From: Azolla caroliniana
Taxonomy: Eukaryota > Plantae > Polypodiophyta
NCBI GenBank assembly: GCA_043228905.1
Contig: JBHGNT010000021.1
Location: forward strand, 7,378,001-7,442,000
DNA length: 64,000 nucleotides
Reading direction: 5' to 3'
The notes beneath the pieces were generated by a model, which searched no databases, was not told the origin of the DNA, and saw only the letters and a program-made list of their open reading frames with translations. Shown here piece after piece: positions 649 to 57,527 of this stretch (position 1 is its first letter; every line of letters begins with the position of its first letter). A program made the position numbers and the translations under genes.

Positions 649-652
649 AATA

Positions 653-1278: not shown

Positions 1279-1299
1279 CCGCGAGGAAAAACCTCGACA
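1279..1299 (+). repeat. Last 21 bp of an oppositely oriented LTR of the same gypsy clade
   Basis: CCGCGAGGAAAAACCTCGACA resembles the reverse complement of the LTR start TGTCGAGGTATTCCTCGCGG; followed by GCGT and unrelated integrase. Confidence 0.7.
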
Positions 1300-2122
1300 G
1301 CGTGTCAACCAAATCCTTGAGCAGTATCTTCGGTGCTCGGTTAGTTACCAACAAGATGATTGGGGCAACTTACTTTCGCTCGCGGAATTCGCCTACAATA
1401 ATTCTCTCCATGCATCGACTGGCGTCACTCCCTTCTTTGCCAACTACGGTTTACATCCTCGCTTCAACATTTCCCTTCCTACCACTTCCGTGAACCCTTC
1501 GGCGGAGGATCGCGCCCACATTTTGGAAGAAGTACATCATGATTTATCCTTGGAGCTTAGTCTTGCTAGTGAACGATACAAGAAGCAGGCTGATCGCCAT
1601 CGATCTTCCACTCCACACTTTGTCGTTGGAGACATGGTCTGGTTGTTACGCCGACACATCTCTACTACTCGTCCATGTGCGAAACTTGATTACAAGAAGT
1701 TGGGACCATTCCGTATCATCGAGTGCATCAATCCCGTCGCCTTCCGACTCGCCCTTCCATCCCACTTCCGGATTCATGATGTTTTTCATGTCTCCCTCCT
1801 CGAACCCCATTATGCTTCACAACTCCCAGGACGTCAAGCCCCACCACCACCACCTGTGCAATTGACGACAGGGGAGGAATACGAGGTCGACCAAATCCTT
1901 GACTCACGTTGGCACCGTCGACACTTGCAATACCTCGTCCTATGGAGGGGTTACCCCATGTCTGAGGCCACATGGGAACCATCGGCAAATTTACAAAATG
2001 CCCCAGAGGTCGTCCAAGATTTTCATCACCGATATCCCCACAAACCAGCGGCCGATTTGGGAAGGCGGCGTAAGAGGGGGGATAATGTCAAGATTCGAAC
2101 TCTTGACACGACCATGTTATAA
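1300..2122 (+). CDS. Chromovirus (Tcn1-like) integrase C-terminus with chromodomain
   Basis: RVNQILEQYLR...AEFAYNN...GPFRI...HDVFHVSLL...EYEVDQILDSR...YLVLWRGYP...TWEP; PPT AAGAGGGGGGATAA at 2072-2085. Confidence 0.9.
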
Positions 2123-2438
2123 TCTAGTATTATGAGTTAACCAAGATATCTAGTACTAGTTATGTATGTAATTGGTCCTTATTATTTTGCTAGCATCATG
2201 TGCATAGTTGCTCCCTTGTAGTATTTACACTTGGCACATGCATGCATACCGACATGCTCTATTGTAGATTCACATGCGTGCAACAAGTATGCATGCCATG
2301 TAGTATAAATAGAGGAGTTCACCTTGAAGGGATTCAAGGTGAACAACACCAGTTATGGAGTCTTTCCTTTAATACTATCTTCTTTCTTGTCCATTTGGTT
2401 ATCTTCTTGCTTGTCTCTTGAGTTTATGATCCGTGACA
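2086..2438 (+). repeat. Chromovirus 3' LTR, copy 1
   Basis: TGTCA...TGACA, directly after the PPT; TATAAATA inside. Confidence 0.9.
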
Positions 2439-2442
2439 GTAA

Positions 2443-3787: not shown

Positions 3788-6700
3788 AACCGTTATCCAG
3801 CACCTTGGTCTCCATGCAGGCCTTCGTAATGTATGGTTCGTCGAGTATCACCGGGTGTGAAGATTTCTCCTGCACGAAGAAGTGTTGATCTATCTCGACA
3901 TCTCCGATTTTAACGTGCGCGTTCGGGCATGCTCCATGTAGTTTCTTAGTAGCGCGTGTGGCCGCGCATATCTTCCATCCGTGCTTGATGTTGATCGGCC
4001 ATTTACCCTTTCTGTAGAAGTCCATTGACATCAGGTTTATCTCGGAACCGTGGTCTATCAATGCCACCACCGGCTCCTGAACGTCCCCGATCCGGACAAG
4101 TGTATCTGTAGTAGCCCTTGCACAATGCAACTTCAAATAGTGGCTCTCCGCCAATTTGTCCTCCAAGGCCGCGTCCTCTAAGTTCGTCGTCCACACTTCC
4201 ACGCGCTTCTCCGGTTCCGGCTCCGTCGTGAGCCTTTTACGCTTCACCAAGTCCACGATGGAATCGTGGAACTCCTTCTTGGTGATTCCGAGCACTTCCC
4301 TCAACGATAGCTCCACCTTGCTGTCAAGGATCCGTTCTTCGAGGACCTTCTGCAAGTCCGTTGCCCTTTCTATTTCCGTGCTCAGTCGGTAACCTGCCTG
4401 CCTTACCTTTTCCTGCGAGCCGGGACCGCTGTTGTCATTTCTTTTCGGGGCGCTCTGCGTCTCGTATCGGCCATAGGGTTCGGCCCCTCGGCCCTTTCCC
4501 GCTCGCTTATCTTCCACCAGAACTTCGACTGGATCGTCCCATCCCGTGACCTCCCGGACCCGCTTCTCCGCACGGTCCGCTTCCTCCTTCCTTAGCCGCT
4601 CTACGGAGAGGCCTTTGACCCATTCTATAAATTCCCGTTTTGATAACCAAAGCGAGTCATCGAAATCATACCTCTCGAGGAGCCTCCCTTCGAACGCCCC
4701 CCAAGTCTGGCAACCGGTGTCGTGAAGATCCATCATTATGTGCAGATCGTGAGGCAGAATCGCTGGGCTTCTGGATCAGAAGGACTCGAAGTATGCACTA
4801 GCTTTAGCGAGAAAGGAATTAATATAGATTGAGATAAGATAGAACGCTTGCCTTTAGATTGAGAGAGATTAAGATTGAACTCTTGACTTTAGATTTGAAG
4901 AACAAGATTGATACATCAATTGGATAATGAATTTCTTACTTTTAATTTCTTGATTAATACATTGCTCCCTTTTGATCTTTTTCATCCACCCTTTTATAGA
5001 TGCTCCCATGCATATGATGCATGTGAGGGTACAAGACATGCATACAATGCATGGAATGCATGTGATGCATGTTTGCCATTTGGCGCTCATGCATCACCTG
5101 TCACTCAATCAAGCTCTAATATGAGAATTTACATGTAAAACTATAATGATAGGAAAAACATTTCTAAGGAAATGACATAGCCTAATGGTAAGTCTATTGC
5201 CTCCTATCTTGGAGGTGTAATGTTCAAGTCTTACATACATCCCTTTTTAAAGCACAAAATACTATTAGGCTTTTGGTCTTGTAATTACACCAAATATCTT
5301 TAAGACACCATGCACCGCGATCAACCGATCCGTCTGATTTGTACCCGTTTGGTCTGCATCCCTAGCCGGTTTCGTCATTGGCCAGTCGCCGGTTGCCGGC
5401 GGCGGAATGTAAAACTATAATGATAGGAAAAATATTTCTAAGGAAATGACATAGCCTAGTGGTAAGTCTATTGCTTCCTATCTTGGAGGTGCAATGTTCA
5501 AGTCTTGCATACATCCCTTTTTAAAGCACAAAATACTATTAGGCTTTTGGTCTTATAATTACACAAAATATCTTTAAGACACCATGCACCGCGATCAACT
5601 GATTCGTCTGATTTGCACCTGTTTGGTCCGCATCCCTAGCCGGTTCCGTCACCGGCTGATCACTGGTCCGGTTTTGGTTGGCCAAAACCTTTGCAAGTAG
5701 CCAAGCCACAACCATTCATTTGATTAACTTAGTTCAAGTCACCTTAAACTCTCTATGATCCACTCATAGACACAAAATAATAGATTTTGTCCCTACTTAT
5801 ATACTCTGGGATCCTTATTTGTCCTTTCTATGTGGGATATCTCGTAGTTTTTCTTTTTCTCTTCTTCTTCGCAAACTTCATACCCACAGAACTTGTCACT
5901 TAGTTGTCTGATTCTTATGTGGTAAAGTGTATTCGAAAGCTCTTGAAGACCTTCATCTTTTTGTACCAAGATATTAAACTAGTATAATATAGAATCTTCA
6001 CTATTATTGTTTTATATTATGTGTGAAGAACCACACTCGATTTTGTACATTCCTCGCAATTTTCACACCGTTGCCGAAAATCTTCATGACACTGGCCTGC
6101 ATTTTGAGCACCTCCACGTGGATGCTTGGCGTCACCACCTGCGGGAATCTGGACAATCGTCTGTCCTCTGGAATGTCCCTCATTATCATTTCAGCCCGGT
6201 AGGCCACGAGATAGCTCATTGCGTTCTTACCTTCAAACCAGCCTATTGTGCTGACGATCGTTTCGAAGGCCTAGTCGAGGGTACCCGTACCTTCACTAGC
6301 ATTCACCAATCGGTCTATAGCTACCGCCATGGCTTGGGCGAGTTCAGTTCCCCTCATCTTCATACTCCTTTGCCGCCTGTTTCAAGTCGGGTTCAACAAA
6401 TTATGTCGTGAATTTATGCGTGTGCGTGCGAAACAAAGGCGGGACCATGGAGGCCTTGAACCAAGGAGCACAAGAAGGGAAAGAAGAGAAATGACACACG
6501 ATTATCAACAAGATGGGTACCAACGGTTAATTAGGGAAATAGAGGAATTAAAACTGGCTTAGCCGGGGGCTAAGCTACGAGCTCAGCCAACAACGCACAC
6601 ACTCACACACCAAGATACAACAGGGAGCCTCTAACGGGAGCACATAGGCTTACTACGCGAGCAGAGGCGTCCGTGCTAACCAAACGAAGTAGAAGGCAGA

Positions 6701-7028
6701 GAGCGGGTGCTCGGTTCCCAGTACAACAACACTTCGTTCTCCCTAAACGCGCGATCCCCCTCTTAGCCCTCTCTCCTGACCTTTATAGGTCCCCGAGGGA
6801 GGATCCATCACATCCTGTAATTACATCCTCTTTATTCTTTGTCGCTTCGGACAGAGATTCATTTCGATTTGTTAATCTATTTGATGTGTCTATATCAAAG
6901 TCTGTCCACAACACGTCGACCTATTCTTAGACTATGTACAAATAATTTACAACTACGTGCATCCGTGTATGCTATGGTTCAGGTGCTCAGGTTTTCGTTT
7001 CCGCTCGTAGCCGGTTTTCCTCACGACC
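3788..7028 (-). mobile_element. Decayed Trp-primed gypsy element: gag-protease remnant, PBS (6381-6398), 5' LTR (6404-~7028)
   Basis: ORF 3783-4736 has protease ALIDHGSEINLM and aligns with deletions to ORF 52757-54865; degenerate Trp PBS. Confidence 0.85.
4718..6091 (-). repeat. Solo LTR (1374 bp) with an internal ~274-bp tandem duplication (5133-~5660)
   Basis: TGTCGTGAAGAT...ATCTTCATGACA termini; TSD CCGG/CTGG; host gag resumes on both sides. Confidence 0.85.
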
Positions 7029-7668
7029 ACGGCCCCTGGTCCGGGCCGACTAACTTGGGCCACCGTCGAGAAGCTAAAGGGAAGGTATTGGTGGCTTGGA
7101 ATGTATATCGATGTGCATCATTTCGTAACGACGTGGGAGAGTTGCCAGATGCATTCCGAAATCCGGCACCGCGATGAACTGCACCCGACCTACCCGCCAA
7201 CCATACACTTCAAGTGAATGGTCAACTTGGTAATGATGGCGATGGGGGTAGGGAAAATGCGATATCTGGCACTTGCACGGGAGGATCTAACGAACCAGGT
7301 GGAGGGCCGAGCGTTGAAGGATAAGACTACTACGACTGTGTGTCACTTCCTCGTTGAGGAAGTGGTTTGCCGGTATGGGTGCATAAGCCAAATTGTGGTC
7401 GATCGAGGAGAGGTGGATGCACAAGAAGCCGAAGAGCTGTTCGAACGGTTAGGGGTGAAGCTTTCTCTCTCTATAGTGTACAATCCAGAAGCCAACGGGA
7501 AGGCAGAGCGCGGGCACGGGCCGATTGTGAAGGTGCTAGTACGAGCGTGCGGGGGACGAGTCAGAAATTGGCCGTGGCTTCTGCCTTTTGCTTTATGGGC
7601 GGACCAAACTACGCATGGTTCGATAACCAGGTACTTGCCGACGGAGCTTATGTTTGGGCAGAAGCCGG
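7029..7668 (+). pseudogene. Gypsy integrase core fragment
   Basis: AREDLTNQVEGRAL...YGC...DRGE...YNPEANGKAERGH, as in ORF 49266-50906; stops upstream. Confidence 0.9.
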
Positions 7669-9912
7669 TGTCCTGGGAAATTCCAGCTACAAGGGAAAAA
7701 GTAACGGAATGCGCATGAACGAGCGGGGGTGTGTGCGTGGATGCGCTCAAATATGGCTTTATGTATAAACACATGTAAATAACATAGGACTAGTAAGCGT
7801 TAGGAACTAGGATTCAATAGGTACTTAAATGTTTGCACGAATAGAGTGGAATGTGGGAGTTTGAAGCGAGGAGATCGAGGGAAATCTCTCTCCAAAGCGG
7901 TGGTTTAACTACTTGATGTAACAACCCTCTCTCTCCTTGGTCTATAAAAGGAGGGAGAGAGGACTGAGGAGGGATCCACATTTGAGGAGGACAAAGTGTT
8001 GTCGGTTTAGGGATCGAGCTCTATGTCTCTCTCTCATTTTCTGTTTGGTGCACGATTTGGTTGGAAGCCTCTGATCGCATAGGAAGCCCGTGTGCTCTTG
8101 ACAGAGGCTCCCCGTTGTGTCTCGGTGTCTCCACCCGTCTGTGCGTCTGTGTGTCTTTTGTGTGACTAGCCCTTGCTTTGACTCCGGTCGAGCCGGTTGT
8201 ATATTGTTATTCTCGTAATCTATAATATTCATTTGCTATCCTGTTTCGGTCCCCCCTCGTCTTCTTCTCCTCCTCCTTCTTCCTTCACTCCTTGGTCTAA
8301 GGCCCCCGCGTCCCGCCTTAGCCGTTGCACGTATACGCGTATAACCGTGACATATTTGGTGAACCCGACGTGAAACAGGCGGTAGAGGAGTCCAAAGATG
8401 AGAGCGGTAGCAGTTGATCGCTTAGTGAACGGTCGAGAGGGCATGGTGCCCTTGATAGGGCCATCGAGGTAATCGTCAGCATGATAGGCCGATTCGTAGA
8501 AAAGGACGCGACAAACTATCTCAGGCCAAGAGGATAATGAGGGACATCCTGGAGGACAGACGGCTGTCGGGATTCCCTCGGTTGCTGACACCGAGCATGC
8601 ATACGAAGGTGGTTGAGGTACAAGCTGGTTGCCGGAACTAGGAGGAGTTCGGAGAACGATTCCTCGAGAGGTACGGGATTGACGACTTGCTTTGGTTGTT
8701 GAAACGAGAGTTCATGGAGTGGGTCGACAGCCCCGGACAAGGGGTGAACACGTCGGTGCTCCTCCAGGTTGATACGAGCGGCATCCTACTTTTCATCAAG
8801 TCGGTGGATGCACTTGATTGAGAGAAGGTGGTTCTCCTACTGGATACGGACGAAGGACTCACTCACGGCCGATTGGGCCGTGGTAAAAAGGGTTTGTACC
8901 CGTTTTGACAAATGGTGAGAATGGAATGATCGAGAGTCGTAGACGACCGGCGCGGGAACCGGGAGGAAGTTAGAGGAGCCGATTCCGGTGTGGACGGAAG
9001 AGACTCGAAGGTGGCTCGAGTTGGGCACGGTCCCAACTAATGCGGTCAAAGGCCCGTCCGGGGGCGCAACTCTAGAAGAGCTGACGAAGATGGTACACGA
9101 TCTCTAGATCGCACAGGCCCGGAGGGATAGCGGGGGAAAATCGCGGGACGAAGGCCTCCGGCTGACCAACGATGTATGTGGTGTGACGCGGTCAATCACA
9201 TTTGAAGAGAGTGCGTCGACTTTGCCGAGGCACTCAGAAGTAACGTAGTGTACCTATGGAATGGGCGGGTGCACGCATGCGAGACCCGAAAACCACTAGA
9301 ATTGAATACCAGTCGAGGCGGAATGATGCGGTTATTGGAAGAAGCCACGACGCGACATGCTGAGGCTCTCCACTACTCAGTGTCGGCTGGCATCCAGGTT
9401 GGAGGTGATGGCGGTGGAAAGGTGAAGGATTTCGGGTTCTGGCCGTTGGTGTTGGAATGCCTTTCCGGCGTAAGGCTGAGGACGGAGGAAGCAGACCGCG
9501 CGGAAAGGCGGGTATGAGAGGTCACTGGATGGGATGATCCGGTCGAAGAGACGATTGGTTTCGTAGAGGCCTCGTGCCAGAACTACAAGGTTCTGGTGGA
9601 GGATAAGCGAGCGGGGAAGGGTAGAGGAACCGGAGCCGAAACCGACAACCGGTACGAGATGTGGGGCACTCCGAAGAAGAACGACGCCGGGGTTTCCGGC
9701 TCGCAGGAAAGGTTGAAGCCGGTAGGTTATCGGTTGGGTTCGGAAACAGAAAGGGCGATGGACTTGCGGAAAGTCCTTGAAGAGAGAATCCTCGACGACA
9801 GGGTAGAGTTGTCTCTAAGAGAAGTGCTAGGAATCGCCAAGGAGGAGTTCCATGACATGGACTTGGTGAAGCGTAAGAGGCTCGCGACGAAGCCGGAGCC
9901 GGAGAGGCCCGT
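7669..9912 (+). mobile_element. Truncated Trp-primed gypsy element: 5' LTR 7669-8352, PBS 8357-8374, decayed gag
   Basis: TGTC...TGACA LTR preceded by CCGG; TGGTGAACCCGACGTGAA; frameshifted gag (YLWNGRVHA, LSLREVLGIAK). Confidence 0.85.
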
Positions 9913-10751
9913 TGTCGCGGTAGTCCGCGCACGCGTGTTAGATCCAGGGCGGAACCACATGGGTCTTGGACCAGAGAGAGACGGAGTATGGAAGTTCGAG
10001 CTTCACTGTTTCCCATGACCGGCCAGGACACCAACCAGAGCATTTCCGGATACGTACCAAGAGCAACCGAGAGGAAAAAGGACGGTGCACGCAACACTGA
10101 CTAGACTCACGCATCCTATGTATAGAAACCAGAAAGAAGGAACTCCAAAGACACCAACACAGACACAAATGCACAGAACTTCACTAATATATATATATAT
10201 ATATGGGTCGAAGCACGCTACGGTGTACCAGAGAAGTACTGTTTTTGGCCACAAAAATTGTCAGTACTTTCAATAGTGTTAGTACTGAATAATTCAGAAA
10301 AAAAATTAGAGAAAAAGAAAATCGATTTTGGAGAGTGGGGTGACTGTAGTACAAGTGTCATTTACTGTAGAAGGAGTGGGGGGAACATGTGAGGAGATGT
10401 TCTTCCATTTTGGGGGCTATTTTCCCCTCACGTCGATTTTGGCGCTTCCCCTCACATCGTTTTGGCGATTCCCCTCATACTGTTCTTCCTCTATCCCTCT
10501 GAGCTTTTCATCACAGACATCCATGTCACGTTTCTGATTTTCCTTCAATCTAAATCTCAGACATCCATGTCTGGTTGGAGAGTTTGAGTTGAGGATTTCT
10601 GATTTTTTTAGGGTTTCTGTTTTTGTTAGGTTTCGATTGAGGTACAGAGACTGTTCTGAGGGTTTAGGTAGCAGCCAATAGTCACTTCTTCGACAACGAC
10701 TTTCGTACTTCCACCGATTGCAGTTGATGTCGTGGTGATTTGGGGCTTTTT

Positions 10752-11405
10752 CCACCAAATCGAGGCGGCATTGGAGGTTCCTTCCACCAAATTGAGGCTC
10801 CTTCCACCAAATCGAGGCGGCATATCCAACGCTCCCTCCACCATTGGAGGTTCCTTCCACCAAATCGAGGCGGCATATCCAACGCTCCCTCCACCATTGG
10901 AGGTTCCTTCCACCAAATCGAGGCTGCATATCCACGCTCCCTCCACCATTGGAGGTTCCTTCCACCAAATCGAGGCGGCATATCCAACGCTCCCTCCACC
11001 ATTGGAGGTTCCTTCCATCCATTTTTTTATTTTCAGTACTAAAATGTTTCATTTCTTCATATTTCAGTACTAAATTTTTAGAATTGACATTTGCCATATT
11101 TGATATGTAATTCTAATGTTTGAAACAAAATATTTCTCACTTTGCAGGCCACATTTAAAAACATTTGATTGTGTTTTCTTGGTTGAGTCTATATATCCAC
11201 GCTCCCTCCACCATTGGAGGTTCCTTCCATCCATTTTTTTATTTTCAGTACTAAAATGTTTCATTTCTTCATATTTCAGTACTAAATTTTTAGAATTGAC
11301 ATTTGTCATATTTGATATGTAATTCTAATGTTTGAAACAAAATATTTCTCACTTTGCAGGCCACATTTAAAAACATTTGATTGTGTTTTCTTGGTTGAGT
11401 CTATA
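10752..11405. repeat. 53-bp tandem array (about 4-5 units) followed by a ~212-bp direct duplication upstream of the transposase
   Basis: Unit CCACCAAATCGAGGCGGCATATCCAACGCTCCCTCCACCATTGGAGGTTCCTT at 10804, 10857 and onward; 10981-11192 repeated at 11194-11405. Confidence 0.95.
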
Positions 11406-11461
11406 TAACATTAACTACTTTCGCAAGACACTTAATTTTTGTGGATAAATCTAGTGACCGA

Positions 11462-14400: not shown

Positions 14401-15393
14401 GCTATGCTTTGTTTTGTATTTGTACTAAATCAGTATTAATGGAAGTGTAGTACTCTCAATTGACAACATAGTACTAATTTTGTTGGAAACCTGAGATACC
14501 AAAGCAGGTATTTCTCCTTATTCAATATTCGTATGCAATGGAATTACTTCGGGTCTGGACATGGAAAAGGAGAGCATGATGGCGCGGGGGCTGTGATCAA
14601 ACGTGCCCTTACAAGTGAGCAGTTGGATAATAATGGCGCTAAGTTACAAAATGCACATGATGTTGTGCAGTGGCTAACATGGAAGATGTCAAATGATGGT
14701 AAGAACAAATTGTTTGTTGAAGTTCGCGCTGATGAGGTTGATAGAACTAAATCATATGGTTGTAAAACCGTGAAAGGCACACGCAGCACCCATTGTGTGT
14801 TAGGGTTTAGCCGCAAGGACACAACCCAATTGTTACTCCGTAGTTTATCATGCTTTTGTTCCATGTGTCTAGATGAAGCTTGGGATAAATGCATCAACCT
14901 ATCAATCGTGGAGCCCTGGAAGCTGCAGAAGCTTGAGCCTGAACGACAAGATGATATTGAAGAGGATGTGCATTCAAACGATATTGTATACTACAACCAA
15001 AATCAAGACTTGGCAGTTTTATTGGAAGTTGGAGATCATTTTGCAGTGCTCAAATATTCTCAGAATGAAGATTTAGAAGACTACTACATTGTGGTGTGCA
15101 AGCAAGGAAAGACATTATTGAAAGAAGTGGTGAGGGATGGTTGGGGCAACAATTTCAACGTTGGTGAGTCTGTCGTGTATGGAAACTATTATGCAAAGTT
15201 GCCGCAGTGCAAGAACACATATGCATTACTAAAAGAAGCACCCATCGCAATAATCTACGCTGATGCCATTCTTGCGATCAAATTCAATATGACTCAAGCA
15301 AAGCAGAAGGTTAAGGGATACAACACTGTCTACAAGGTCCCCCAAGAGGTTCATGAGCACATATTAGGGGAGGTCTCTCTATTTAATGCTTGA
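11462..15393 (+). CDS. Three-exon DDD transposase, Sola2-like (exons ~11462-12066, 12159-13108, 14508-15393), about 810 aa; apparent 1-bp frameshift near 11529
   Basis: GT-AG introns join in frame (EMTE|AELYM, FIAR|YFSLFNIRMQW); motifs IDFAENY, QNEVQSMHW, SDDKKHD, WSDGAASQFK, FGSGHGKGEHDGAG; Cys-rich segments. Confidence 0.88.
13327..14001. repeat. Tandem array of ~123-146-bp units (5 copies) in transposase intron 2, degenerate beyond
   Basis: Recurrent ATCCATGTGAAG...GGATGTAAAGTACTCATCTTGTAC...CCTTAAGAGAATTGTACTAA. Confidence 0.95.
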
Positions 15394-22196: not shown

Positions 22197-22244
<48 letters not shown>

Positions 22245-45435: not shown

Positions 45436-46760
45436 CACCACTTCGGGTTGCGCGGCACACGGAGGTGCCAGAGTGGGAATACAGGCGCGAAGATGGGTTG
45501 CCGGTCCAGGTGATCTCTCGTAGAAGGCCGAAGAGGGATCCTCCACACTGGTTCCAGAGACCTTGGCAGTCCGGTTGTCGTGGCAACGTAAGACCAAGGA
45601 GAAGGTAGGTAGTGGCGAGGGGACGAAGGTGGTGAAGATCAGCGCGGAACGAGAATTGGGACGACGCGAAGGTCGACAAAGGCCAAGAGGGCCATCATGA
45701 GTGCTCCTCGGATGGAGGACACCGCGTATCCGAAGGAACGAGAAGTGTGCATGCGGTGGAAAGAAGGGCCAACGGGGAAGCAAGCGCACTACGGGATCAC
45801 AGCGAATTATCGATCGACGGGTTGAACAAGCCTACGGAGAGGCAAGTGCGGAGAAGGAACCGGAGCCGACGATTCAAATCAGCAAGGCAAACGCGGCAGC
45901 CGAAATGCGGATTACGAAAGTTTGGTTCCTCACCGACCGGAATCTCTCACCCTTCTCTGAACTTGGCACGTACCGGTGGACGTGTAGTTTGGTGGGGGCG
46001 AATGTTGTGAAGATTCTGGGCCATAATGAGAAACCAAGGAATATCAGAAGAATCGACGGGGTGCATCATGTGCACTCACCCTTGTACAAATTGTGTAAAT
46101 GATAGGGGCGCCATTATGGTGTCGGACAGTAGTTAATTCGGGACAGAGGATCCCATGTAATAAGGGATTTATCCCACATTGTTACACATCCCTCTCTTTG
46201 TTCTATAAAAGGAAGGGAGCGCCCTTTGTAAAGGGGTTGCCCATTTTTGAGTTAGGAAGGGTATACCACTTAGGTCTAGGGTTACTTCAGCTAGGGTCTC
46301 TTTGTCTAGGGTTTTGTTATGTTCCTTTGCTTCTTCTTCTTGAGGGTTTTGGGGCGTCGTAGCCATGGCGACTAAGCTTTGTTAGGGTTCTTGTTCTTGT
46401 TCTTGTTCTTCTTTTTCTTCTTCCTCTTTGTCGTCAGGTGAGTGAGTCTTCATGTTTGTTTAGGGTCTAGCTCGGTGAAGAGCTTGTGTGTTCAGTGGGG
46501 TTTGCTTTTGCTCGGTCTCCTGTGCAAGACGCCACTTGGCGCGATGAGCCCGAGAGCTCCCCAATTGGCGGCTTGGCAGCAGACGACTGTTGTAACCTAA
46601 TCTACCTTGGTCCAGCTCGAAGCTAGTATTGTATCTTGCATGTGTATTTATATATATAAAAGGTTGTGCATATTTGTGTCCATGTTGGTGTCGGGTGCGT
46701 TTCTTTCCCTTTGTTTCCTGTACATAAGAGGTGTGTGTTGAGTCGGTATTATGCGTGTGG

Positions 46761-46811
<51 letters not shown>

Positions 46812-47423
46812 TTCGGTAGCCGCTGGTACGCGTCCGGAATCGCTCTGGGGTGCGCCACAACCAGTAGAACCGGGACTCGAGAGAAGTCAACTTCTCGACA
46901 CCCATCTCTTCCTAGTCCGAGACCCCCGTGGTCCCGCCCCTTCCTACACATACGCGCGGAACTCCGCGACAACGTGCAGCTTGAGAAGTGCATCGATTGC
47001 TTGGCTGGCAAGAAGAACCGATCCTCTTTCCAGTCGAGACCATCGTCGAGAAGGAATGCACTGGTGGACCTTGTGCATACCAATGTAGGCCAAGTGGAGA
47101 TGAAGTCACATGCCGGATCACAGTACTTCATGACGTTCATAAACGACCACAACCAGAAGTTGTGGGTCTCACCCCTGAAGACGAAGGATCAAGTATTGTC
47201 CGTCTTTAAGGAACTCCACGTGAGAGTGGAAAGAGAAACCGGCCGGAAGCTAAAGGCGGTTCGAGCGAACAACGCAGGAGAATATCGGGGGCAGTTCGAG
47301 GAGTACTACCAGTCGAAGGGAATCCGGCTTGAATTCACCATGTTGAAGACACCGGATCTCAACGGATTGTCCGAACGGATGAACCAGACCGTAATGGAGA
47401 GAGTCTGGAGTATGTTGGCACGT

Positions 47424-48421
47424 TGTCGTGAAGATTTCTGGCTATAGTGTGAAACCGAGGTGGAATGGGCAAGTGCACATGTATAGTAGGAAGATGGTGT
47501 ATAGAATAAGGGGGAGTATTTATCCCACATTGTAATGTCCCTCCCTCCTTGGGCTATAAAAGGAAGGGAGGGGTCTCTTGTGAAGGGGTTGCCCATTTTG
47601 AGTTAGGAGGGTATACCGTTAGATTTAAGGTTTAGTAGTGTTCTTCCTCTTCATCTTATTCTTAGGGTTTCTACTTTGGTCTTCCTCCCTATTTCGTTTA
47701 GGGTTTCATTTTGGGGTCTTCTTCTTCTTTTTCTTATGGGTTTGATTCCTTCTTCTTGAGTGGAGGTTTAGTGCTTCGTCTCGTTCTTCATCTTGTGAGA
47801 GATTATGGGGGATTTAGGGTTTCGGGGTTTCTTAATGTGATCTAAATTTCATAAGCTTAGGGTTTTGGGTTTACCTTCTTCTTGGTCGAGTTAGTGTTTT
47901 GGTTTGGGGTTTCTACAATAGCGGCTCTTCGGCATTCCGGTGGCGACACTTGGAGGTTCAGTTTCCTCTCCTTGATGGAGAGCGTTTCACATGGCGCCCG
48001 GTTCGAGAAGGGAGGGTGAAGTGGCACGGGAACACTCCATCGTCTTCGGGGCGTGACCAACAATGGACGTCGCAGTCCTGGCGACCCACTTGACTCGCCT
48101 TCACCAGTCCCCCATTCTTATCTTGATGTATTAGCCGATTGTTTGTAATAGCCACCGGATTCGGGGCATGTAACCGTCTTGTTGTAAAACTCTTGTAATA
48201 TATATTCATGTTAGTGTATATCTATCTTCCTTGTAACATATTTGAGTCAGGTCCATATTCGCGGTGAACCGTCTTTTTGTGAAACCCTACATTCGTTGGA
48301 GCCGGAAACCAGTTCCGGACAGAAGCCTACAAAGCTTAAGCACTCCACCAACTGTCTCCCCAGTCCAAGACCCCCGGGGTCCCGCCTAAGATCCTACACG
48401 TACTCGCGGAATACCGCGAGA
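47424..48421 (+). repeat. Solo LTR, family C (998 bp)
   Basis: TGTCGTGAAGA start; perfect TSD ACGT; similar to 46003-46971. Confidence 0.9.
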
Positions 48422-49265
48422 ACGTGCCAAGTTACCCAAGATGTTTTCGGCTAAAGCGTTGATGACAGCGACGTACGTGATAAATAGATCACCCTCAGCA
48501 CCCTTGGACAGAGACACACCATTGAGAGTATGGACCGGTAGAGACGTTGTTGAGGTACTCCTCGCGGATGCGTGGAATGAGGTGGGACCTCGGGGGTCTT
48601 GTACCGAAGAGCAATAGGGAAAGGAGAAGGGAAGGGACCCACTACGTGCGAGCGTAGATCCACAGGGACACGGCCCTTCGACACGAAGACGTGAGCAGGG
48701 AAACCAACACAGAGAGGCACAACGGTATGTAAGTATATATTAACAGAGACAAACAACAAAAGCACGAAGTCGGTTACAACCGAACAGGCCGGCGAACAGA
48801 TGCTGATGCCTGTTCGCAAACGCTCAAAAAGGAGGGAGTAGGTGGGAGGTGTTGCCGGAAGCACTCGGGCATTCCTCAGAGCAGCGCGAGCCTCACGAAA
48901 CCTGCACAGAAAGAAGCTACGGAGTATGGAAGAGAGAGAAGCCTTCGACCGACAACCCAACAGCACTTCGTCCTCTCTGATTCCGCGATCCCTTCCTCCT
49001 CCTCGTCTCCCTCCTTTTATAGGCAAGAAGGGAGTCGTTTCCTATTAACTTCCTACCTACCAAATCTACCTACCTAGGATCTTCCATGTCCCTAATTCTC
49101 TCTTATGTACAACACAAGGCGTACGTGCATGAAGAGCCGGTTCCTATGCTCTGGCGCACCGATTCCGCTCGTGGACGGTTTTCTTCACGACATCCGCCCC
49201 CACCTAACCGCGCATCCACCGGCATGCGCCAAATTGAGTTGGGATGGAGAAAACCGGTCCAGCCT

Positions 49266-52200
49266 TCATTCCCCGCCCGTCGGTTCTTCCTCGGTTTTGG
49301 ATCGTTCGTCGTTCCGGTCCAGGTTAACCGTATCCGGCTCGTCGTCGTGACTCTTCTTGAACGCTTTGATCCGCTTCCCAGCTACCGGTATCGCCATTCT
49401 CGTGCCGTCGAGTTCCGCCAGATGGTACGTCCCATTGTCGTTGGCGCTTTGTACCACGTAAGGCCCGAACCACCTTCTTGCGAACTTCTGTGTTGCTCGG
49501 TGCTGGTTGTCGAGGCTACTGTCATAGACTAGCACCCAGTCGCCTTCCTCGATCTTCGTCGGTCGTAGCCGGTGCGTTCGGTCGAACCGGGCTTTGTTCC
49601 TCGTCCTTGCCACCCAAAGCTTTTCCGTAGCCTGCTCTACGTCCTCCAGTCTTCTCTCGAGCTGCCTTATGCACGCCGCCAACAGTTCCTCCCGGCTCAT
49701 TTCGACTCTCCAGTCCACGGTTGTCCATGAGGGGATCGTACGTTCCATCGGCATGATCGACTTCTGCCCAAACATGAGCTCTGCCGGCATGAATCCGGTT
49801 ACCGAACTGTGCGTAGTTCGGTCAGCCCATAATGCGTAAGGCAGCAGCCGCGGCCAGTTCCGGACTTGACCTCCGCATGCCCGAACTAACGCCTTGATGA
49901 TCGGTGTGTGTCCGCGCTCCACCTTCCCATTCACCTCCGGGTTGTACGCAGTGGTAAGCGAGAGCTTGACTCCTAGCCGGTCGAACAGCTCCTCGGCCTC
50001 TTCGGCGTCCAACTCCCCGCGATCAGCCACGATCTTCCCGACGCACCCGTACCGGCATATCACGTCCTCGATCAAGAACCGACATACGGCCGCGGTCGTC
50101 TTGTTCTGAAGGGCTCGGCCTTCCACCTGGTTCGTCAAATCTTCCCGAGCCAGGACCAGATACCGCATCTGTCCTATCCCCATCGGCATCGTCACCAGAT
50201 CTACCATCCATTTGAAGTGGATGGTCGGAGGGTACGTAGGGTGAAGCTCGTCCCGATGCCGGACTATGGAGTGCATCTGACAGCTCTCGCAAGTTGTCAC
50301 GAACCGATGCACGTCCTGGTACAGCCCCGGCCACCAGTACTTCCCTTTTATCTTCTCGAACGTGGCCCACGTTCCACGGTGTCCAGCCCAAGGGCTGTCG
50401 TGGTAGGCCGTCAGCAGCTCCTCCTGTTCTCCCTTCATCGCCACCACCCGGAGCGGGACGTCGTTCCTCTTCTTCGGGTGCTTCCATAAGTATCCGTCCC
50501 GGAGAAAGAACCGGTATGCTTTCTTCCGGATCCGGTTGGTCTCGTCCCTCGTCCACGACGTATCCGGCGTCATTGTCCTCAAGAAACCACCGATCTGTAG
50601 CCACTCGCCGTCATACTTGCTCTCGTCGAAGCCGTTAAGCGCCGGAGTGCCCGTCCCATCGGTCATCACGTACGTTGCTTCGAAGAAGTCCACGCCGACT
50701 TCTTCGTCCTTCGAAACCATGCCGCCCTCGTCATCAAACCTCACCCTCGAAAGCATGTCGGCCATGGCGTTGTCCTTTCCGGAAATTTGCCGTATTTCCG
50801 GGTCCAGGGACTTGATGTAAGCTATCCACCTGAGCATCGCCAGGTCTGATGTTGCGCATCCGGAAACCATGCCGAGAATTGGTAGGCAATCCGTCTCGAT
50901 AATCACTTCTGTCCCGATCAGGTAGTCTTTGTCGGCCTTTACTACCGAAACGATACCCCAGAGTTCGCGTTTAACCTGGGCGTACCCTCGCTGTCAATCA
51001 CTGAGGACCTTTGCGCCGAATCGGATCGGGAACCGGGTGCCGTCCTTGTCTTCTTGGTTGACGACCCATCCGATCCCGGTCGGGCTCGTATCCACCGTTA
51101 TGTATACCAGGGTACCCTTCTCGTAGACAGCCTTCCGGAGCGCCGGTGCTGCCGCAAGAGCTTCCTTTAGCTTCCGGACCGACTCCGTGTGCTCGTCTCG
51201 CCACTCAAATTTTCGCCCCTTTTTCAGCAACCCGTATAGCGGCTCCGCAACGTGGGCGTAATGCGGGATCCATATGTGGTAGAACGCGCATGCCCCCAGG
51301 AACCTCCGAACTTCCATAACCGAGCTACAGTCGGTCTTCATCGCGGAGATGGCTTCTACCTTTGCCGGAGACGGCTTCCGGCCATACGGTTCACACAGGT
51401 GTCCGACCACCAGGATTTCTGATTGCCCGAAGGCCGATTTCTCCCCGGAGAAGGTGAGCCTCGTATCCTCTAGCCTTTGTAGCACCTTCTCACAGTCGTC
51501 GATGTGTGTTGCCACGAATCGTCGGCATCCGTCCGGCCCGACTGTCTCGTCCTTCTCTTCCACCGGGCACCCCTTTATCGGGATGTCCAGAAATGGCATG
51601 GTGATGTCCGGGATGCAATCCCTCAGTACCTTGTTCATTGCATTCACCATGTGGGCCACCGAGTTGGTCCCTCCTTGTGGCAGGGTACACATTCGCACTA
51701 GGCCGAGGGGAGTTCGCATCGTCGTAATGTCTCTGCTCTCCACGGCTAGCTGGAACTGGTCGTACCCTGAGTACAGATCACCGACCGAGTAAATCGACCT
51801 TCCGGCGAAGGCCTCCGCGAACTCGTCTATGGTCGGCCCGATTCCTGCGTTCCGAATGGTCACTCTATTGACCGGCTGCAGATCCTGAATGAAGCGCAAT
51901 GTTCCGTTTTTCTTTGGTACGGTAAACCATCGGTTCGAGTATGGCTCGCTCGACAGTTCGAGAATACCCATATCGACTTTCTGCCTCAGTAGGTCCATCA
52001 ACTCCGGGATGTGAGCTCTCGGTACTGGAATCGGCTTGAGATTCCACGGCACATGCGGTACCATGAATATCACCATCGGCTCCACGATCGTCGGGTCTAC
52101 GCACCCGATCTCTTCCGGTGAGAATGCGAAGGCCTTTCCGTGCCTTCCGAGCATTCTCCGAAACCGGTCTTCCTCCACCGACAGTAGGAACCCGCCCCCA

Positions 52201-52766
52201 CCGATCTTGAGCTCCCGGAGCGTCCCGTCTGTGAAGGTGTGTCCTATGCAGGCCGGATCTCGTAAACTGGGGTCCGACGCAACCCCTCTAATTCGGGACT
52301 CGCTGCCCTCCGATAAGGGTGCCGTGACTAGCCTTACCTTCCGGTCCACAGTCTTGTACTTCGTGCTAACTCGGGCCGTCCGATCCGACCGGAGCCCATG
52401 ACTGAAGTTCGCGATGACTTCGTACATCTCTTCGGAACATACCGGTATCGTCCGGTCTTCGTTAAGGTCTTCTCCGGCTACCTTCCTCAGCATCCCCAAG
52501 GTGTCGTCGAAGGAGACCGCCTCCACGGCCCCACTGATTTCCTCGTCCGGGCCGAGAACTCCGCACGCTCGAAGTCGCTCCTCCGCCCTTGCCCTTTCTC
52601 GACCAACGATGCCGACTATCATACACCCTCCGTTGTTGGAGAAGCAGAATTTTCCACATGTCGTACAAGGTTTCTTCGGTTTCGGTTCTATCGTACAGCT
52701 GTGGGGTCTTTCCCGAGTGTCCGGACTGTCTCGGCCCCACGCCTTGGCAGCCCTCTCTAAAAATCC
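49266..52766 (-). pseudogene. pol: Pol (RT-RNase H-integrase) in the -1 frame relative to gag; frameshift near 50995; one RT catalytic Asp deleted
   Basis: DLYSGYDQ, LPQGGTNS, PFLDIPIKG (PFLDD in the copy near 30110), VDTSPTGIG, HDSPWAGH...CESC, DRGE, KVERGH, GPY; no chromodomain. Confidence 0.92.
52697..52766 (-). promoter_or_regulatory. Candidate -1 ribosomal frameshift signal (G GAT TTT plus downstream stem-loop)
   Basis: Heptamer 52766-52760 immediately before the gag stop; GTGGGG/CCCCAC and CCGAG/CTCGG nested stems downstream. Confidence 0.65.
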
Positions 52767-54865
52767 TCCCGGTTCTCGCCACCGAGGGATTCGCGGTTTC
52801 GCTCGTGGTTCGGTCGCATCGTCAGAAATTGGACCGAATGGCGCCCATCCTGGCTTTTGACCCTCGCGTAGGCCGAACCATTGTCTAACACCTTGGTCTC
52901 CATTCGCGCCGCCGTGATGTATGGTTCCCCTAATATGACCGGGTGCGAGGACGTCTCCTGTACGAAGAAGTGCTGGTCGATCTCGACGTCGCCGATCTTG
53001 ACTCGCACGTTCGGGCAGGCCCCGTGCAGTTCCTCGGTGGCGCGCGTCGCCGCCCGTATCTTCCACCTGTGCTTGGTGTTGATCGGCCACTTTCCCTTCT
53101 TATAGAAGTCCATGGACATTAGGTTTATTTCCGAACCGTGGTCCACCAGTGCCACCACCGGTTCCTGAACATCTCCGATCTTTACCGGGGTCTCCATGGT
53201 CGCTCGGGCCCAGTGTGGCCTCGAATAGTGGCTCTCCACCCACTCATCTTCCAGCGCCAAGTCGTCGATGTGCGTCGTCTGCACCTCCACCGGTCTTTCC
53301 GGTTCCGTCTCCGTCGATAGCCTCTTCCGTTTCACCAAGTCCACAATGGAGTCGTGGAACTCCTTCTTGGCGATCCCTAGCACCTCCCGCAATGACAGCT
53401 CCACCTTGTTGTCGAGGATCCATTCTTCTAGGACCTTTCGTAGGTCCGTGGTCCTTTCTATTTCCGTCCCCAGTCGGTATCCGCCCTTCCTGGGGTTATC
53501 TGGCGCGCTGGACCCATCGGCTTCGTTCCGTCGTTGCCCGAATCGGGTCTCGTATCGTTGTGAGGGCCCGGCCGCTCCGGCTTTCCCCACTTGTTTGTCT
53601 TCTACCAAAGCCTCGTAGTTTCGGCAGGCGGCTTCTACGAAGCCCGTCTTCTCCTCGACCGGGTCGCTCCACCCGGTTATTTCCCGGACCCGTCTCTCAG
53701 CGCGGTCCGCTTCATCTTTCCTCGGCCGTGCACCGGCGAGGCCTTCCAGCATTGCCGACCAGAATCCGTCTTTGCTCTCCTTTCGGGCCTCGCTGCCCCC
53801 GACCCGAATACCGGCCGACGCCGAGTAGTGGATGGCCTCCACGTGTCGGGCCGCTGCCTCTTCCATCAGTCTCTTCATACCTCCTCGCCCGTTGTTTCGG
53901 TTTAGCGCCCTTCTGGTATCGCCGGCGTGCACCCGGCCTTCCCACAGGTACACCACCCGGTTCCTCAACGCCTCAGCAAAATCGCCGCAGTCCTTCCGAA
54001 TGTGGCCGACCTCGTCGCACCACATGCACCTATTCCCGACTACCGGCCGTCGGTCACAAGCCGGTTTGCCGCCTTCCCTTCGAGTCTGGGCGATCTGGAG
54101 ATCCTTTATCGCCCGCGTCAACTCCTCCAACGCTGCTCCTCCGGTCGAGCCATTGACCACGCCGGTCGAAGCCGAACCGGTCTCGAGCCACTCCCGGGCC
54201 TCTTCCCTTCGTCCTTGCGGTGCCGGTTCAAGCCTCCTTGTTGTAACAGAGCCTGCACCGGCCGCCCCGTCATCAGCCCATTCTCGCCGTTTGTCGAAAC
54301 GGCCACATACTCTCTTAACCGCAGCCCAGTCGGTCGTCAGCCCGTCTTCGGTTTCCAGCAAGGAGCCGACTTGATCCCAGTCCCGCTCGTCCACCGACTT
54401 GACGAACAGTAGGACCCGGCTCGTATCCAGAACGGTTCGGTCAAGCGCCGAAAGGCGCGCAAAGCGTTCCTCAAACTCCCGGAGGAGTGCCGACGCGTTT
54501 CTTCCCTTGCCGGGGGACTCCACCCACTCCATGAAGTCCCGTTTCGAAAGCCGGAGCGCGTCGTCCAGCCCGTATTTTTCTAGGAGTCGACCTTCGAACT
54601 CCACCCGCACCTCAAGCACCTCCGCATGGATGCTCGGCATCGCCACTCGAGGGAACCCGGCAAGACACCTCTCTTCCGGAATGTCCCGCATCAGCATTTC
54701 TGCCCCGTAGGACGCCAAATACTTCGTGGCATCCTTTCCGCTGAACCGGCCGATCGTACCGACGACCGCCTCAATGGCTCTGTCGAGGGTGTCGGAGCCC
54801 TCGCGTGCACTCAATATCCGATCCACGGCCGAAGCCATGGCCTCCGCAAGATCCGACCCTTTCAT
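52757..54865 (-). CDS. gag: Gag-protease ORF (702 aa)
   Basis: Zinc knuckle CMWCDEVGHIRKDC; aspartic protease ALVDHGSEINLM. Confidence 0.92.
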   Translation of the reverse strand: MKGSDLAEAMASAVDRILSAREGSDTLDRAIEAVVGTIGRFSGKDATKYLASYGAEMLMRDIPEERCLAGFPRVAMPSIHAEVLEVRVEFEGRLLEKYGLDDALRLSKRDFMEWVESPGKGRNASALLREFEERFARLSALDRTVLDTSRVLLFVKSVDERDWDQVGSLLETEDGLTTDWAAVKRVCGRFDKRREWADDGAAGAGSVTTRRLEPAPQGRREEAREWLETGSASTGVVNGSTGGAALEELTRAIKDLQIAQTRREGGKPACDRRPVVGNRCMWCDEVGHIRKDCGDFAEALRNRVVYLWEGRVHAGDTRRALNRNNGRGGMKRLMEEAAARHVEAIHYSASAGIRVGGSEARKESKDGFWSAMLEGLAGARPRKDEADRAERRVREITGWSDPVEEKTGFVEAACRNYEALVEDKQVGKAGAAGPSQRYETRFGQRRNEADGSSAPDNPRKGGYRLGTEIERTTDLRKVLEEWILDNKVELSLREVLGIAKKEFHDSIVDLVKRKRLSTETEPERPVEVQTTHIDDLALEDEWVESHYSRPHWARATMETPVKIGDVQEPVVALVDHGSEINLMSMDFYKKGKWPINTKHRWKIRAATRATEELHGACPNVRVKIGDVEIDQHFFVQETSSHPVILGEPYITAARMETKVLDNGSAYARVKSQDGRHSVQFLTMRPNHERNRESLGGENREDF

Positions 54866-56042
54866 CTTCTACTCTTCTGCCGCCTCCTTCACGTCGGGTT
54901 CACCAAGATGTCGAGGTACTCCTCGCGGATGCGTGGAATGAGGCGGGACCTCGGGGGTCTTGTACCGAAGAGCAATAGGGAAAGGAGAAGGGAAGGGACC
55001 CACTACGTGCGAGCGTAGATCCACAGGGACACGGCCCTTCGACACGAAGATGCGAGCGGGGAAACCAACACAGAGAGGCACAACGGTATGTAAGTATATA
55101 TTAACAGAGACAAACAACAAAAGCACGAAGTCGGTTACAACCGAACAGGCCGGCGAACAGATGCCAATGCCTGTTCGCAAACGCTCAAAAAGGAGGGAGT
55201 AGGTGGGAGGTGCTGCTGGAAGCACTCGGGCATTCCTCAGAGCAGCGCGAGCCTCACGAAACCTGCACAGAAAGAAGCTACGGAGTATGGAAGAGAGAGA
55301 AGCCTTCGACCGACAACCCAACAGCACTTCGTCCTCTCTGATTCCACGATCCCTTCCTCCTCCTCGTCTCCCTCCTTTTATAGGCAAGCAGGGAGCCGTT
55401 TCCTATTAACTTCCTACCTACCGAATCTACCTACCTAGGATCTTCCATGTCCCTAATTCTCTCTTATGTACAACACAAGGCGTACGTGCATGAAGAGCCG
55501 GTGCCTATGCTCCGGCGCACCGATTCCGCTCGTGGACGGTTTTCTTCACGACAACGTGTCTTACCGACACCTGAAGGTGTTCAGTTGTCTCGCTTATATG
55601 CATGTAGAAAAGGTCAAGAGAGAGAATTTGGATCCGAATTCCCGGCCATGCATATACCTTGGATATGGAGATGATGAGTTCGGCTACCGAGTGTGGGACT
55701 TGGTCAACAAGAAGGTATTCTGGAGTCAAGACATAGTCTTCATGGAAGACAAGAATATTGCCGACTGGGAGTTGGAGAAGAAGATAACGGACTCCGGATC
55801 GACTGGTAGAGATCGGTCGAAAGACACAAGGACCCATCCAGCCGGAAGCCGAACGACACTCAAAGAACCGGCCAATGTCGGACAAGAATCCAAACCGATT
55901 GAAGAAGAAGAGTTGGACACCAGAACCGGACAAGACCCCGAATCAAATTCGGATGAAGAACATACTACGGAACCAGTGGTAAGAGCCCCCGGGAGATTTC
56001 CGGACGTAGAGCATGTGTTGTTGACTGACAAGGGAGAGTCGG

Positions 56043-57046
56043 TGTCATGGTGTGGTGTGTCCAGTGTGAGAAAAAGCAAGGCTCCACTCACATCTCATGA
56101 AATAATCCAGAAATATAAATAATAATAATAATAATAACTTGTAGTAGTTTAGTGGTTAAGGCTCATAAGTATATATAGAGAGGTGTGGAGTTCAAGTCTC
56201 TCTTGTTACAAATCAAGTAATATTTTGCTCCCCTTCCATTTTTGTGATAAATAAATAAAAGCATGCAATGTAAAAATAGGCGCCTTTTTCTTCTATAAGA
56301 TGGGAGGAATAGGGCTTATTCGAGGGTCACCCAACTTGCCTTAGGGGTGTACCACTAGGGTTTCATCATCTTCTCATCTTCTTCTTGGGTTAGGGTTTCG
56401 TAACCTCCCTTTCTCCTTATCCCTTTTTCCTTCTTCTTTTTCTTGTACAGTTAGGGTTTTAGAGCTTCTTCTTTCTACTTTTCTATCTTTCTCCTAAACA
56501 TATTAGAGAACTCGAGGTTTAGGGTTTTATGTTCCTTATGAGCGTGTAGGGTTCATCTTTCTTATGAGTTTTAGGGTTGTGAATTTTGCATCCACTTGTG
56601 AGCTAGGGTTTGGGTTTGGGTTCCTTATACAACGACTTCTTCAACATCTCCATGGTGGTCAACTCGGTGGCACGAGAGCTACTCCGAATCGAGGCAACAT
56701 AGCCGTCGGAAGTAGTCGAGCTCGGAGCCCACTAGACTCATCTTCATCAGATTATTTTCAGCCACTTGTGTGTTGATTAGCCATTTTTTAATAATGATGA
56801 AACTATTTCTATGTAAAAAAATCACCAAATCGTGGTATCTAACCTAACTGTTGTACAAACCCTAATTTTTGCAACATAACTCTTGTATATTTTTGTCTAC
56901 ATTTCTCCCTAACCTCGTGCGTATTCTCCTTAAACATTTGCTAATCGTGGTGGCGAATCTCCCACTATCCTCACTTCTTTTGTCTCCCCGGTCCAAGGCC
57001 CCGGCGGCCCCTTTCGAGCGACAGACACACGCAAAACTTTGCGACA
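56043..57046 (+). repeat. Solo LTR (1004 bp), gypsy clade
   Basis: TGTC...CGACA; flanks TCGG/CTAG both derivable from CCGG, which restores the host codons GEPES. Confidence 0.85.
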
Positions 57047-57527
57047 CTAGAAAGCTTCGAAGAAGCAAAGAAAGACACCCACATCTGCAAGTGGTTAAGT
57101 GCCATGCAGGATGAGATGGATTCCCTGCATGAGAACCATCCATATGAGCTGATGGAGCTGCTGAAGGGAAAGAGAGCGCTCTGGAACAAGTGGGTGTACA
57201 AGATGAAACTGGGAGACGCTAGAAATCCACCGAGATACAAAGCCTGAATCGTGGTGAAGGGGTTTCAACAGAATAAAGGAGTGGATTTTGATGAGATCTT
57301 TGCCCCGATAGTTAAGATGACATCCATCTGGACGGTGTTGAGCATCGCAGCGAGCATGGACCTCGAGGTAGAGCAATTAGACATCAAGATGGCGTTCCTA
57401 CATTGTGACCTCTAAGAAGAGATCTACATGCAGCAACCGGAGGGGTTTGTCAAGAAAGGGAAGGAGCACCTGGTGTGCCGGTTGAAGAAGAGCTTATACG
57501 GACTGAAGCAAGCTCCTCAGCAATGGT

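What the first reader, a model, noticed from the sequence alone, without database searches (positions are those of the whole stretch)
1279..57050. Trp-primed gypsy clade inserts almost exclusively at CpG-centred 4-mers (NCGN)
Seen, two-sided TSDs: CCGG/CTGG (4714/6092), ACGT/ATGT (27108/36802), ACGT/ACGT (47420/48422), ACGT/ACGT (48544/55554), TCGG/CTAG (56039/57047; host codons imply CCGG). One-sided flanks: CCGC (1279), GCGT (1300), ACGG (7029, LTR end uncertain), CCGG (7665), CCGT (9909), ACGT (46972). One exception: ACTC (38639). The 5-bp TSDs of the copia elements and copia-type solo LTRs (AGATT, CTTTT, AAAGG, GAAGG, GTTGT) show no such pattern. The integrase has no chromodomain. Precedent: Drosophila ZAM/Tirant prefer CGCG. 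Inference: a sequence- or mCpG-reading integrase that steers these elements into other TEs or heterochromatin, explaining the nesting. I do not know of such specificity described for a plant LTR lineage.
Basis: partly seen in the sequence, partly recalled or inferred. Interest (0 to 1): 0.8.

Follow-up and report, generated by a model that had tools for sequence, protein, structure and literature searches.

The report
Retrotransposon that inserts at CG sites
These plant jumping genes almost always land with a CG pair at the centre of their 4-base target site; the pattern is real, but it was published in 2019 for the moss 'Phygy' lineage, to which these copies most likely belong.

Summary
All 17 listed junctions read as stated. 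Of 12 insertion sites in the window, 11 have a central CG (flank background 6.2%, p 6e-13). In metagenome contigs, 75 of 81 distinct LTR 5' flanks are NCGN (background 3.3%). The outer bases are also biased: first base A 48, C 17, G 9, T 1, and ACGT 31 against 4.1 expected. Neumann et al. 2019 (PMC6317226) already list the moss lineage Phygy as 4-bp TSD (100%, NCGN), tRNA-Trp primer (81%), no extra domain. The window elements match these features. No Phygy reference sequence could be aligned, so membership by phylogeny is untested, and the complete copy (7,006 bp) is shorter than the published range. Best mechanism (inferred): the integrase itself selects a CpG-centred 4-mer. A candidate determinant is a clade-wide Glu, in a loop one residue short, at the position of foamy-virus Ala188. 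Methyl-CpG reading and steering into TEs are not supported: the CG rule holds equally in flanks with no TE match and in CpG-poor flanks.

The parts
1..1278 (-). 5' part of element A: gag, PBS 633-648, 5' LTR 653-1278; outer flank CCGC 1279-1282, lying inside the end of another LTR of the clade
1283..1303 (+). last 17 bp of an LTR (1283-1299) with flank GCGT 1300-1303 in the integrase gene of a Tcn1-like chromovirus
4714..6095 (-). solo LTR-like insert 4718-6091 with TSD CCGG/CTGG in gag of a same-clade element; its relative in L029 has flank GCGT
6383..7032 (-). element C: degenerate PBS 6383-6398, 5' LTR 6404-7028 (terminal base changed), flank ACGG in a same-clade integrase fragment
7665..8372 (+). 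element D: flank CCGG 7665-7668, 5' LTR 7669-8352, PBS 8357-8372
9909..23082 (-). 3' LTR of element E (9913-10204 plus 22536-23072) split by a 12.3-kb insert with terminal inverted repeats; PPT at 23070-23082; flank CCGT 9909-9912
27108..36805 (-). element F 27112-36801 (internally deleted, 5' LTR cut to about 25 bp, holds copia 30548-36203); TSD ACGT/ATGT; uninterrupted paralogue reads ACGT
38639..38705 (-). degraded LTR 3' end with flank ACTC, the one exception
45993..46975 (+). PPT and 3' LTR 46003-46971 of a long-LTR subfamily; flank ACGT in copia coding sequence
47420..48425 (+). solo LTR 47424-48421, TSD ACGT/ACGT
48544..55557 (-). complete element 48548-55553 (7,006 bp): 645-bp LTRs with 630/645 identical, PBS 54890-54905, gag-protease ORF 52760-54868 (DUF4100, below cut-off), RT-RNaseH-integrase in an overlapping frame 53099-49269 with one in-frame stop, PPT about 49193-49202; TSD ACGT/ACGT
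50013..50024 (-). integrase D-R-G-E: second catalytic Asp and the Glu that aligns with foamy-virus Ala188, in a loop one residue shorter than in PFV and Ty3
56039..57050 (+). divergent solo LTR 56043-57046, TSD TCGG/CTAG (CCGG inferred); its relative in L007 has flank CCGT

Best explanation
These are non-chromovirus Ty3/gypsy LTR retrotransposons, likely of the moss-defined Phygy lineage, whose integrase likely selects a 4-bp target with CG at its centre. Shown: 4-bp duplications, a near-absolute central CG, T avoided at position 1 and A at position 4 (A-C-G-T favoured), no significant base bias from 6 to 20 bases outside the LTR, and no chromodomain. Inferred mechanism: a 4-bp stagger forces a sharp kink at the central base step, which favours pyrimidine-purine steps in retroviral intasomes, and T at the joining position is disfavoured in nearly all of them (PMC4422553). 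That explains the outer bias and the YR class. It does not explain CG alone (0 of 81 central TA; 4 of 81 TG/CA), so an added base-specific contact is inferred. A candidate is the clade-wide Glu in the shortened loop after the second catalytic Asp. TG/CA copies are read as later methyl-cytosine decay. The dense nesting in this window is read as a TE-rich, CpG-rich neighbourhood plus tolerance of insertions there, not as tethering.
For: Window 11 of 12 sites. Metagenome contigs: 75 of 81 5' flanks, CG at offset -3 in 75 against at most 5 at any other offset from -2 to -15; 19 of 24 3' flanks; two divergent LTR subfamilies also NCGN (L029 GCGT, L007 CCGT). The same PBS follows 10 of 36 LTR 3' ends in the loci and appears behind 46971-type ends in 3 of 4 runs laid. 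Phygy's published profile: 4 bp 100% NCGN, tRNA-Trp 81%, no extra domain; Phygy often nested in Tcn1 in P. patens (PMC6911290), as at 1300 here. The rule is independent of local GC and CpG density, and CpG density is flat at 3.3% near and 3.2% far from the site. Integrase loop: Glu in 69 of 72 and 85 of 89 homologues that matched the motif pattern (of 120 listed in each search), against D-Q-G-A-A-F in PFV; one Chara relative and one unnamed relative outside the clade have the normal-length loop.
Against: No REXdb Phygy sequence could be aligned (supplementary files 1 and 3 too large), and no protein named Physcomitrium appeared in three homologue searches. The complete element is 7,006 bp, below Phygy's 7,656-9,968 bp. 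The tRNA-Trp identity of the PBS is recalled, not shown by a call (searches gave nothing). In retroviruses the Ala188-type residue contacts bases 2-3 positions outside the duplication, not the central step, and no bias is seen at those positions here, so the Glu may have nothing to do with CG choice. The structure model is moderate (pLDDT 69, pTM 0.49) and has no DNA. Of 12 loci with flanks on both sides of one LTR, only 3 have identical 4-mers and 1 differs by one transition; 8 mismatch, probably because assemblies join different copies.
Confidence: 0.75

Rival explanations
1. The integrase needs or prefers methylated CpG, so insertions follow CG methylation into TEs and heterochromatin.
For: All 12 window sites lie in other TEs. 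TSD copies show C>T and G>A decay (3 of 5 two-sided sites), so they were methylated at least after insertion. C at position 1 is under-used (17 of 74 against 41% expected once T is excluded, p 0.001), which would fit a methyl clash at methylated CCG; G is under-used too, so a plain preference for A explains it equally.
Against: The rule holds in 43 of 44 flanks without any TE or repeat match and in the most CpG-poor third (26 of 27). No CpG-dense patch surrounds the sites. No chromodomain or methyl-binding domain is found at E<=1. No methylation data were available, so this is not excluded.
Confidence: 0.15
2. Pure shape readout: the integrase only needs a flexible pyrimidine-purine step at the kink, and CG wins through DNA mechanics with no base-specific contact.
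For: 4-bp-TSD retroviruses enrich central YR steps and avoid T at position 0 and A at +3 (PMC4422553), exactly the outer bias seen here. The modelled integrase is closest to PFV and Ty3.
Against: Retroviral YR enrichment averages 63% over random and covers YR steps as a class. Here CG is about 28-fold enriched, TA is absent (0 of 81) and TG/CA (4 of 81) fall below their 14% background.
Confidence: 0.07
3. Artefact: LTR ends were mis-called so that CG-containing LTR bases were counted as target site.
For: LTR termini are CG-rich.
Against: The LTR start is fixed independently by the 38 copies preceded by the polypurine tract and the LTR end by the 10 followed by the PBS. Beyond the 4-mer the flanks are unrelated to each other. 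A paralogue gives an exact 4-bp overlap.
Confidence: 0.01

Closest known systems
Phygy (REXdb non-chromovirus Ty3/gypsy lineage, Physcomitrella patens; Neumann et al. 2019, PMC6317226)
   Same: 4-bp TSD with NCGN preference, tRNA-Trp primer, no chromodomain or archaeal RNase H, coding region filling the internal part, nesting into Tcn1.
   Different: Complete copy 7,006 bp against 7,656-9,968 bp. Described as specific to P. patens, whereas this clade has homologues named from Riccia (RT 68-73% to the nearest full-length relative) and Ceratopteris. The ACGT-favouring outer bias is not stated in the passages and table I read.
TatI (REXdb, non-chromovirus OTA/Tat)
   Same: 4-bp TSD (100%) and tRNA-Trp primer (75%).
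   Different: TatI has an archaeal RNase H in 100% of elements; none is detected here. No target motif is listed for it.
Drosophila ZAM/Tirant errantiviruses
   Same: Gypsy-group elements with a strongly sequence-specific, CG-containing target; ZAM integrase binds its target directly (PMC2527525).
   Different: Target CGCGCg/CGCG, a longer alternating motif whose 4-mer centre is GC; three ORFs and AGT/AnT LTR ends (PMC5408687), against TG..CA ends and no env-like ORF here.
Prototype foamy virus and Ty3 integrases
   Same: Closest solved integrases by sequence (E 1e-19 to 4e-17) and fold. PFV makes a 4-bp TSD with a central YR step and avoids T at position 0.
   Different: Their base preference is weak. 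They have a small neutral residue (PFV Ala188) and a loop one residue longer where this clade has Glu.

Membership tests
Phygy | RT-RH-INT phylogeny groups with REXdb Phygy (the primary criterion) | not testable with these tools
   Reference FASTA too large to read; no Physcomitrium-named hit. My RT tree of 36 rows puts the window element in a 96/96 clade with Riccia and unnamed proteins, apart from Chara and fungal relatives, but holds no Phygy reference.
Phygy | 4-bp TSD | tested here: met
   5 two-sided sites in the window; exact 4-bp overlap on a paralogue.
Phygy | NCGN target preference | tested here: met
   11 of 12; 75 of 81; 19 of 24.
Phygy | tRNA-Trp primer binding site | tested here: inconclusive
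   One conserved PBS, distinct from the copia PBS, lies 3-4 bases after the 5' LTR in 4 window elements and 10 loci. Its assignment to tRNA-Trp is recalled; attempts to confirm it by a call gave nothing.
Phygy | No chromodomain and no extra polyprotein domain | tested here: met
   Pfam at E<=1 on 5 proteins: RT, RNase H, integrase, protease, DUF4100; no Chromo, no RVT_3. The Tcn1 integrase in the same window does give Chromo at 1e-16.
Phygy | Short element, polyprotein spanning the internal region; size 7,656-9,968 bp | tested here: inconclusive
   ORFs span 49269-54868 of the 5,716-bp internal region (met), but the length of 7,006 bp is below the published range. The paper calls size relatively insignificant for classification.
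TatI | Archaeal RNase H domain (100% of elements) | tested here: not met
   No additional RNase H family in P0001, P0002, P0004, P0005 at E<=1.
Selgy | tRNA-Ala primer (90%), 4,432-6,724 bp | tested here: not met
   7,006 bp lies above the range; the PBS is recalled as Trp; no NCGN is listed for Selgy.
Chromoviruses (Tcn1, Galadriel and others) | Integrase chromodomain | tested here: not met

The most novel reading that the evidence does not exclude
The Phygy-type integrase is a natural CpG- or methyl-CpG-specific integrase, conserved from bryophytes to ferns, with a true consensus of V-C-G-B (ACGT preferred) set by a unique acidic, shortened target-binding loop; if methylation is what it reads, it targets silenced DNA without a chromodomain.
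Probability: 0.15. Interest if true: 0.65.

Novelty: new member of a known kind. Interest (0 to 1): 0.25.

Why it matters
The headline property is already in print, so the finding itself adds little. What it adds is modest. The preference is quantified in another genome (75 of 81 sites), refined to an ACGT-favouring motif, and tied to a clade that reaches liverworts and a fern. A candidate integrase residue is named. I found no mechanistic study of the Phygy preference in the library searched, so whether it reads CpG or methyl-CpG appears open and is directly testable. A methylation-reading integrase would be a new way for a plant retrotransposon to avoid genes.

Tried and rejected
No whole genome is held for this window, so the genome-wide logo was replaced by one metagenome scan with a 20-base LTR-start pattern. 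Rows dropped before the count of 81: 38 PPT-preceded 3' LTRs, 2 duplicates (L059, L097) and L062, which does not continue as an LTR. Viral contigs held no relative. The first read-laying run showed no loose ends at the LTR termini; it gave one junction with two NCGN 4-mers between two LTR ends. ESM Atlas returned only generic gypsy clusters. Cluster look-ups gave no organism names for the closest proteins. The tRNA identity check failed: no tRNA in the window, none in 31 viral loci matching the PBS complement, and no paper holding the motif. The exception at 38639 could not be resolved against its paralogue. The fold search only confirmed a PFV/Ty3-like integrase. Passages on Ylt1, P. patens RLG families and Cryptococcus gave no target-site data for this lineage. 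Earlier scan findings: none. Rejected: TatI, Selgy, chromovirus, boundary artefact, and ZAM as a like-for-like precedent.

Full report
Scope. The window is a nest of plant LTR retrotransposons (gypsy, copia, a Tcn1-like chromovirus), a 12.3-kb DNA-transposon-like insert and LINE remnants. No genome is held for it. The host was not determined. The closest named proteins are from the liverworts Riccia sorocarpa and R. fluitans and the fern Ceratopteris, which points to a non-seed plant.

Observation. They form 12 independent insertion sites: five two-sided (CCGG/CTGG, ACGT/ATGT, ACGT/ACGT twice, TCGG/CTAG) and seven one-sided. Eleven have CG at positions 2-3 in at least one copy, against 6.2% CG in the host flanks (p 5.7e-13). 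LTR boundaries are fixed independently by the polypurine tract and the PBS. At 27108/36802 the two flanks overlap by exactly four bases on an uninterrupted copia paralogue, which reads ACGT. At three sites in the right-hand copia the host reading frame continues on either side. The copia TSDs AGATT, CTTTT and GAAGG/AAAGG are confirmed and hold no CG; GAAGG/AAAGG is one TSD, and GTTGT could not be verified.

Independent test. Thirty-eight were 3' LTRs preceded by the polypurine tract. Of the other 84, two were duplicates and one (L062) was not an LTR, leaving 81. Seventy-five have a central CG against 3.3% background (p 7e-104), and 79 have CG, TG or CA; the two others are CCTT and ATCT. Among the 75, position 1 is A 48, C 17, G 9, T 1 (expected 17.8, 19.8, 10.3, 27.2), position 4 is T 46, G 15, C 10, A 4, and ACGT occurs 31 times against 4.1 expected. 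Positions -6 to -20 show no significant bias; -5 has p 0.03. Of 36 LTR 3' ends in the same loci, 10 are followed by the PBS, two were too near a contig end, and 19 of the remaining 24 have a central CG, with 3 TG/CA and 2 other. Relatives of the two divergent solo LTRs also have NCGN flanks (L029, L007). Caveats: these contigs may come from a related species, exact matching favours young copies, and 8 of 12 loci with both flanks of one LTR have non-matching 4-mers, probably chimeric assembly.

Anatomy. The complete copy at 48548-55553 is 7,006 bp with 645-bp LTRs (630 identical), a PBS, gag-protease and an overlapping RT-RNaseH-integrase frame. It is broken: it has an in-frame stop, and its RT motif lacks one catalytic Asp that its relatives have. 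No chromodomain or archaeal RNase H is found. An RT tree places it in a supported clade with Riccia and unnamed proteins, apart from Chara and fungal relatives at about 38-50% identity; long branches make the deeper joins unsure. The family is high-copy in the four runs laid, from three coded organisms.

Prior art. Neumann et al. [quoted passage not shown] Their table gives Phygy as 186 elements, 4 bp (100%) (NCGN), 8,628 bp (7,656-9,968), tRNA-Trp 81%, no extra domain. Jedlicka et al. 2019 (PMC6911290, passages) add that Phygy in Tcn1 was the commonest among repeated nested pairs and that 4-bp TSDs dominate in Phygy. A liverwort genome paper (PMC12885004, passages) reports Phygy enriched in centromeres. 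The window elements match every listed feature except size. Phylogenetic membership could not be tested, because the reference files (supplements 1 and 3) were too large to read; they may also hold per-element TSDs that already show the ACGT bias. The Trp assignment of the PBS is recalled.

Mechanism. Shown: the target rule and its narrow extent. From literature (PMC4422553, passages and section 14): 4-bp-TSD integrases kink the target at the central step, favour YR steps there, and avoid T at the joining position. This accounts for the outer bias. It does not account for CG alone, since TA is absent and TG/CA are rare, so a base-specific contact is inferred. Alignment to PFV and Ty3 integrases shows D-R-G-E-L where PFV has D-Q-G-A-A-F, that is Glu at the Ala188 position and one residue fewer. 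Glu is present in 69 of 72 and 85 of 89 homologues matching the pattern. Retroviruses have small neutral residues there. Against this candidate, that residue normally reads bases outside the duplication, and the model (pLDDT 69) carries no DNA.

Methylation and steering. All window sites are in TEs, but the window is almost all TE. In the contigs, 27 of 81 flanks match window TEs or clade proteins and 37 of 81 match those or another locus. Central CG holds in 23 of 27 TE-matching, 9 of 10 repeat-only and 43 of 44 unmatched flanks, and in 26, 25 and 24 of 27 across GC tertiles. CpG density does not rise near the site. This gives no support for tethering to CpG-dense or TE DNA. It cannot exclude methyl-CpG reading, because my TE library is small, assemblies favour unique flanks and no methylation data were available. 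The ZAM precedent differs: its target is CGCGCg (PMC2527525, passages; PMC5408687, passages).

Verdict. A real and strong pattern, already described for Phygy. This is most likely a new member of that lineage, with a refined motif and a candidate residue. Searches for a mechanistic study (open-licence PMC and bioRxiv only) found none. Interest 0.25.

Noticed in passing
window 10205-22535: A 12.3-kb insert with terminal inverted repeats, set in an AT microsatellite inside the LTR of element E; it carries internal tandem arrays (52, 123/146 and about 105-bp units) and ORFs without a Pfam match. Probably a DNA transposon.
   Followed up: partly
window 1279-1303: Element A inserted at CCGC 17 bp from the end of another LTR of the same clade; LTR ends carry CGCG-rich sites that are themselves targets. 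L036 shows a similar insertion in the family's own 3' UTR.
   Followed up: partly
run X1, table 5c: One contig joins an LTR end to another LTR end across 8 bases made of two NCGN 4-mers, suggesting two insertions at adjacent CpG sites.
   Followed up: no
window 1193-2794: Tcn1-like chromovirus end (SH3 and Chromo domains) whose 3' LTR is duplicated in tandem (2083-2444 and 2440-2800, 98.6% identical).
   Followed up: no
window 44723-45950: A gag-like ORF of this clade on the minus strand lies just upstream of the plus-strand PPT and 3' LTR at 45993-46971; either an antisense arrangement in the long-LTR subfamily or remains of a second element.
   Followed up: partly
L116: An insertion at CCGC directly inside the terminal inverted repeat of the DNA-transposon family seen at window 22451-22537.
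   Followed up: no
window 59042-59581: Four 135-bp tandem copies, 100% identical, inside LINE-like sequence; very recent duplication or assembly artefact.
   Followed up: no
proteins P0214-P0224: Distant relatives in Chara braunii and a fungus share the P-[FY]-x-D-D RT motif but, where detected, not the D-R-G-E loop; their target sites would be a natural control.
   Followed up: partly
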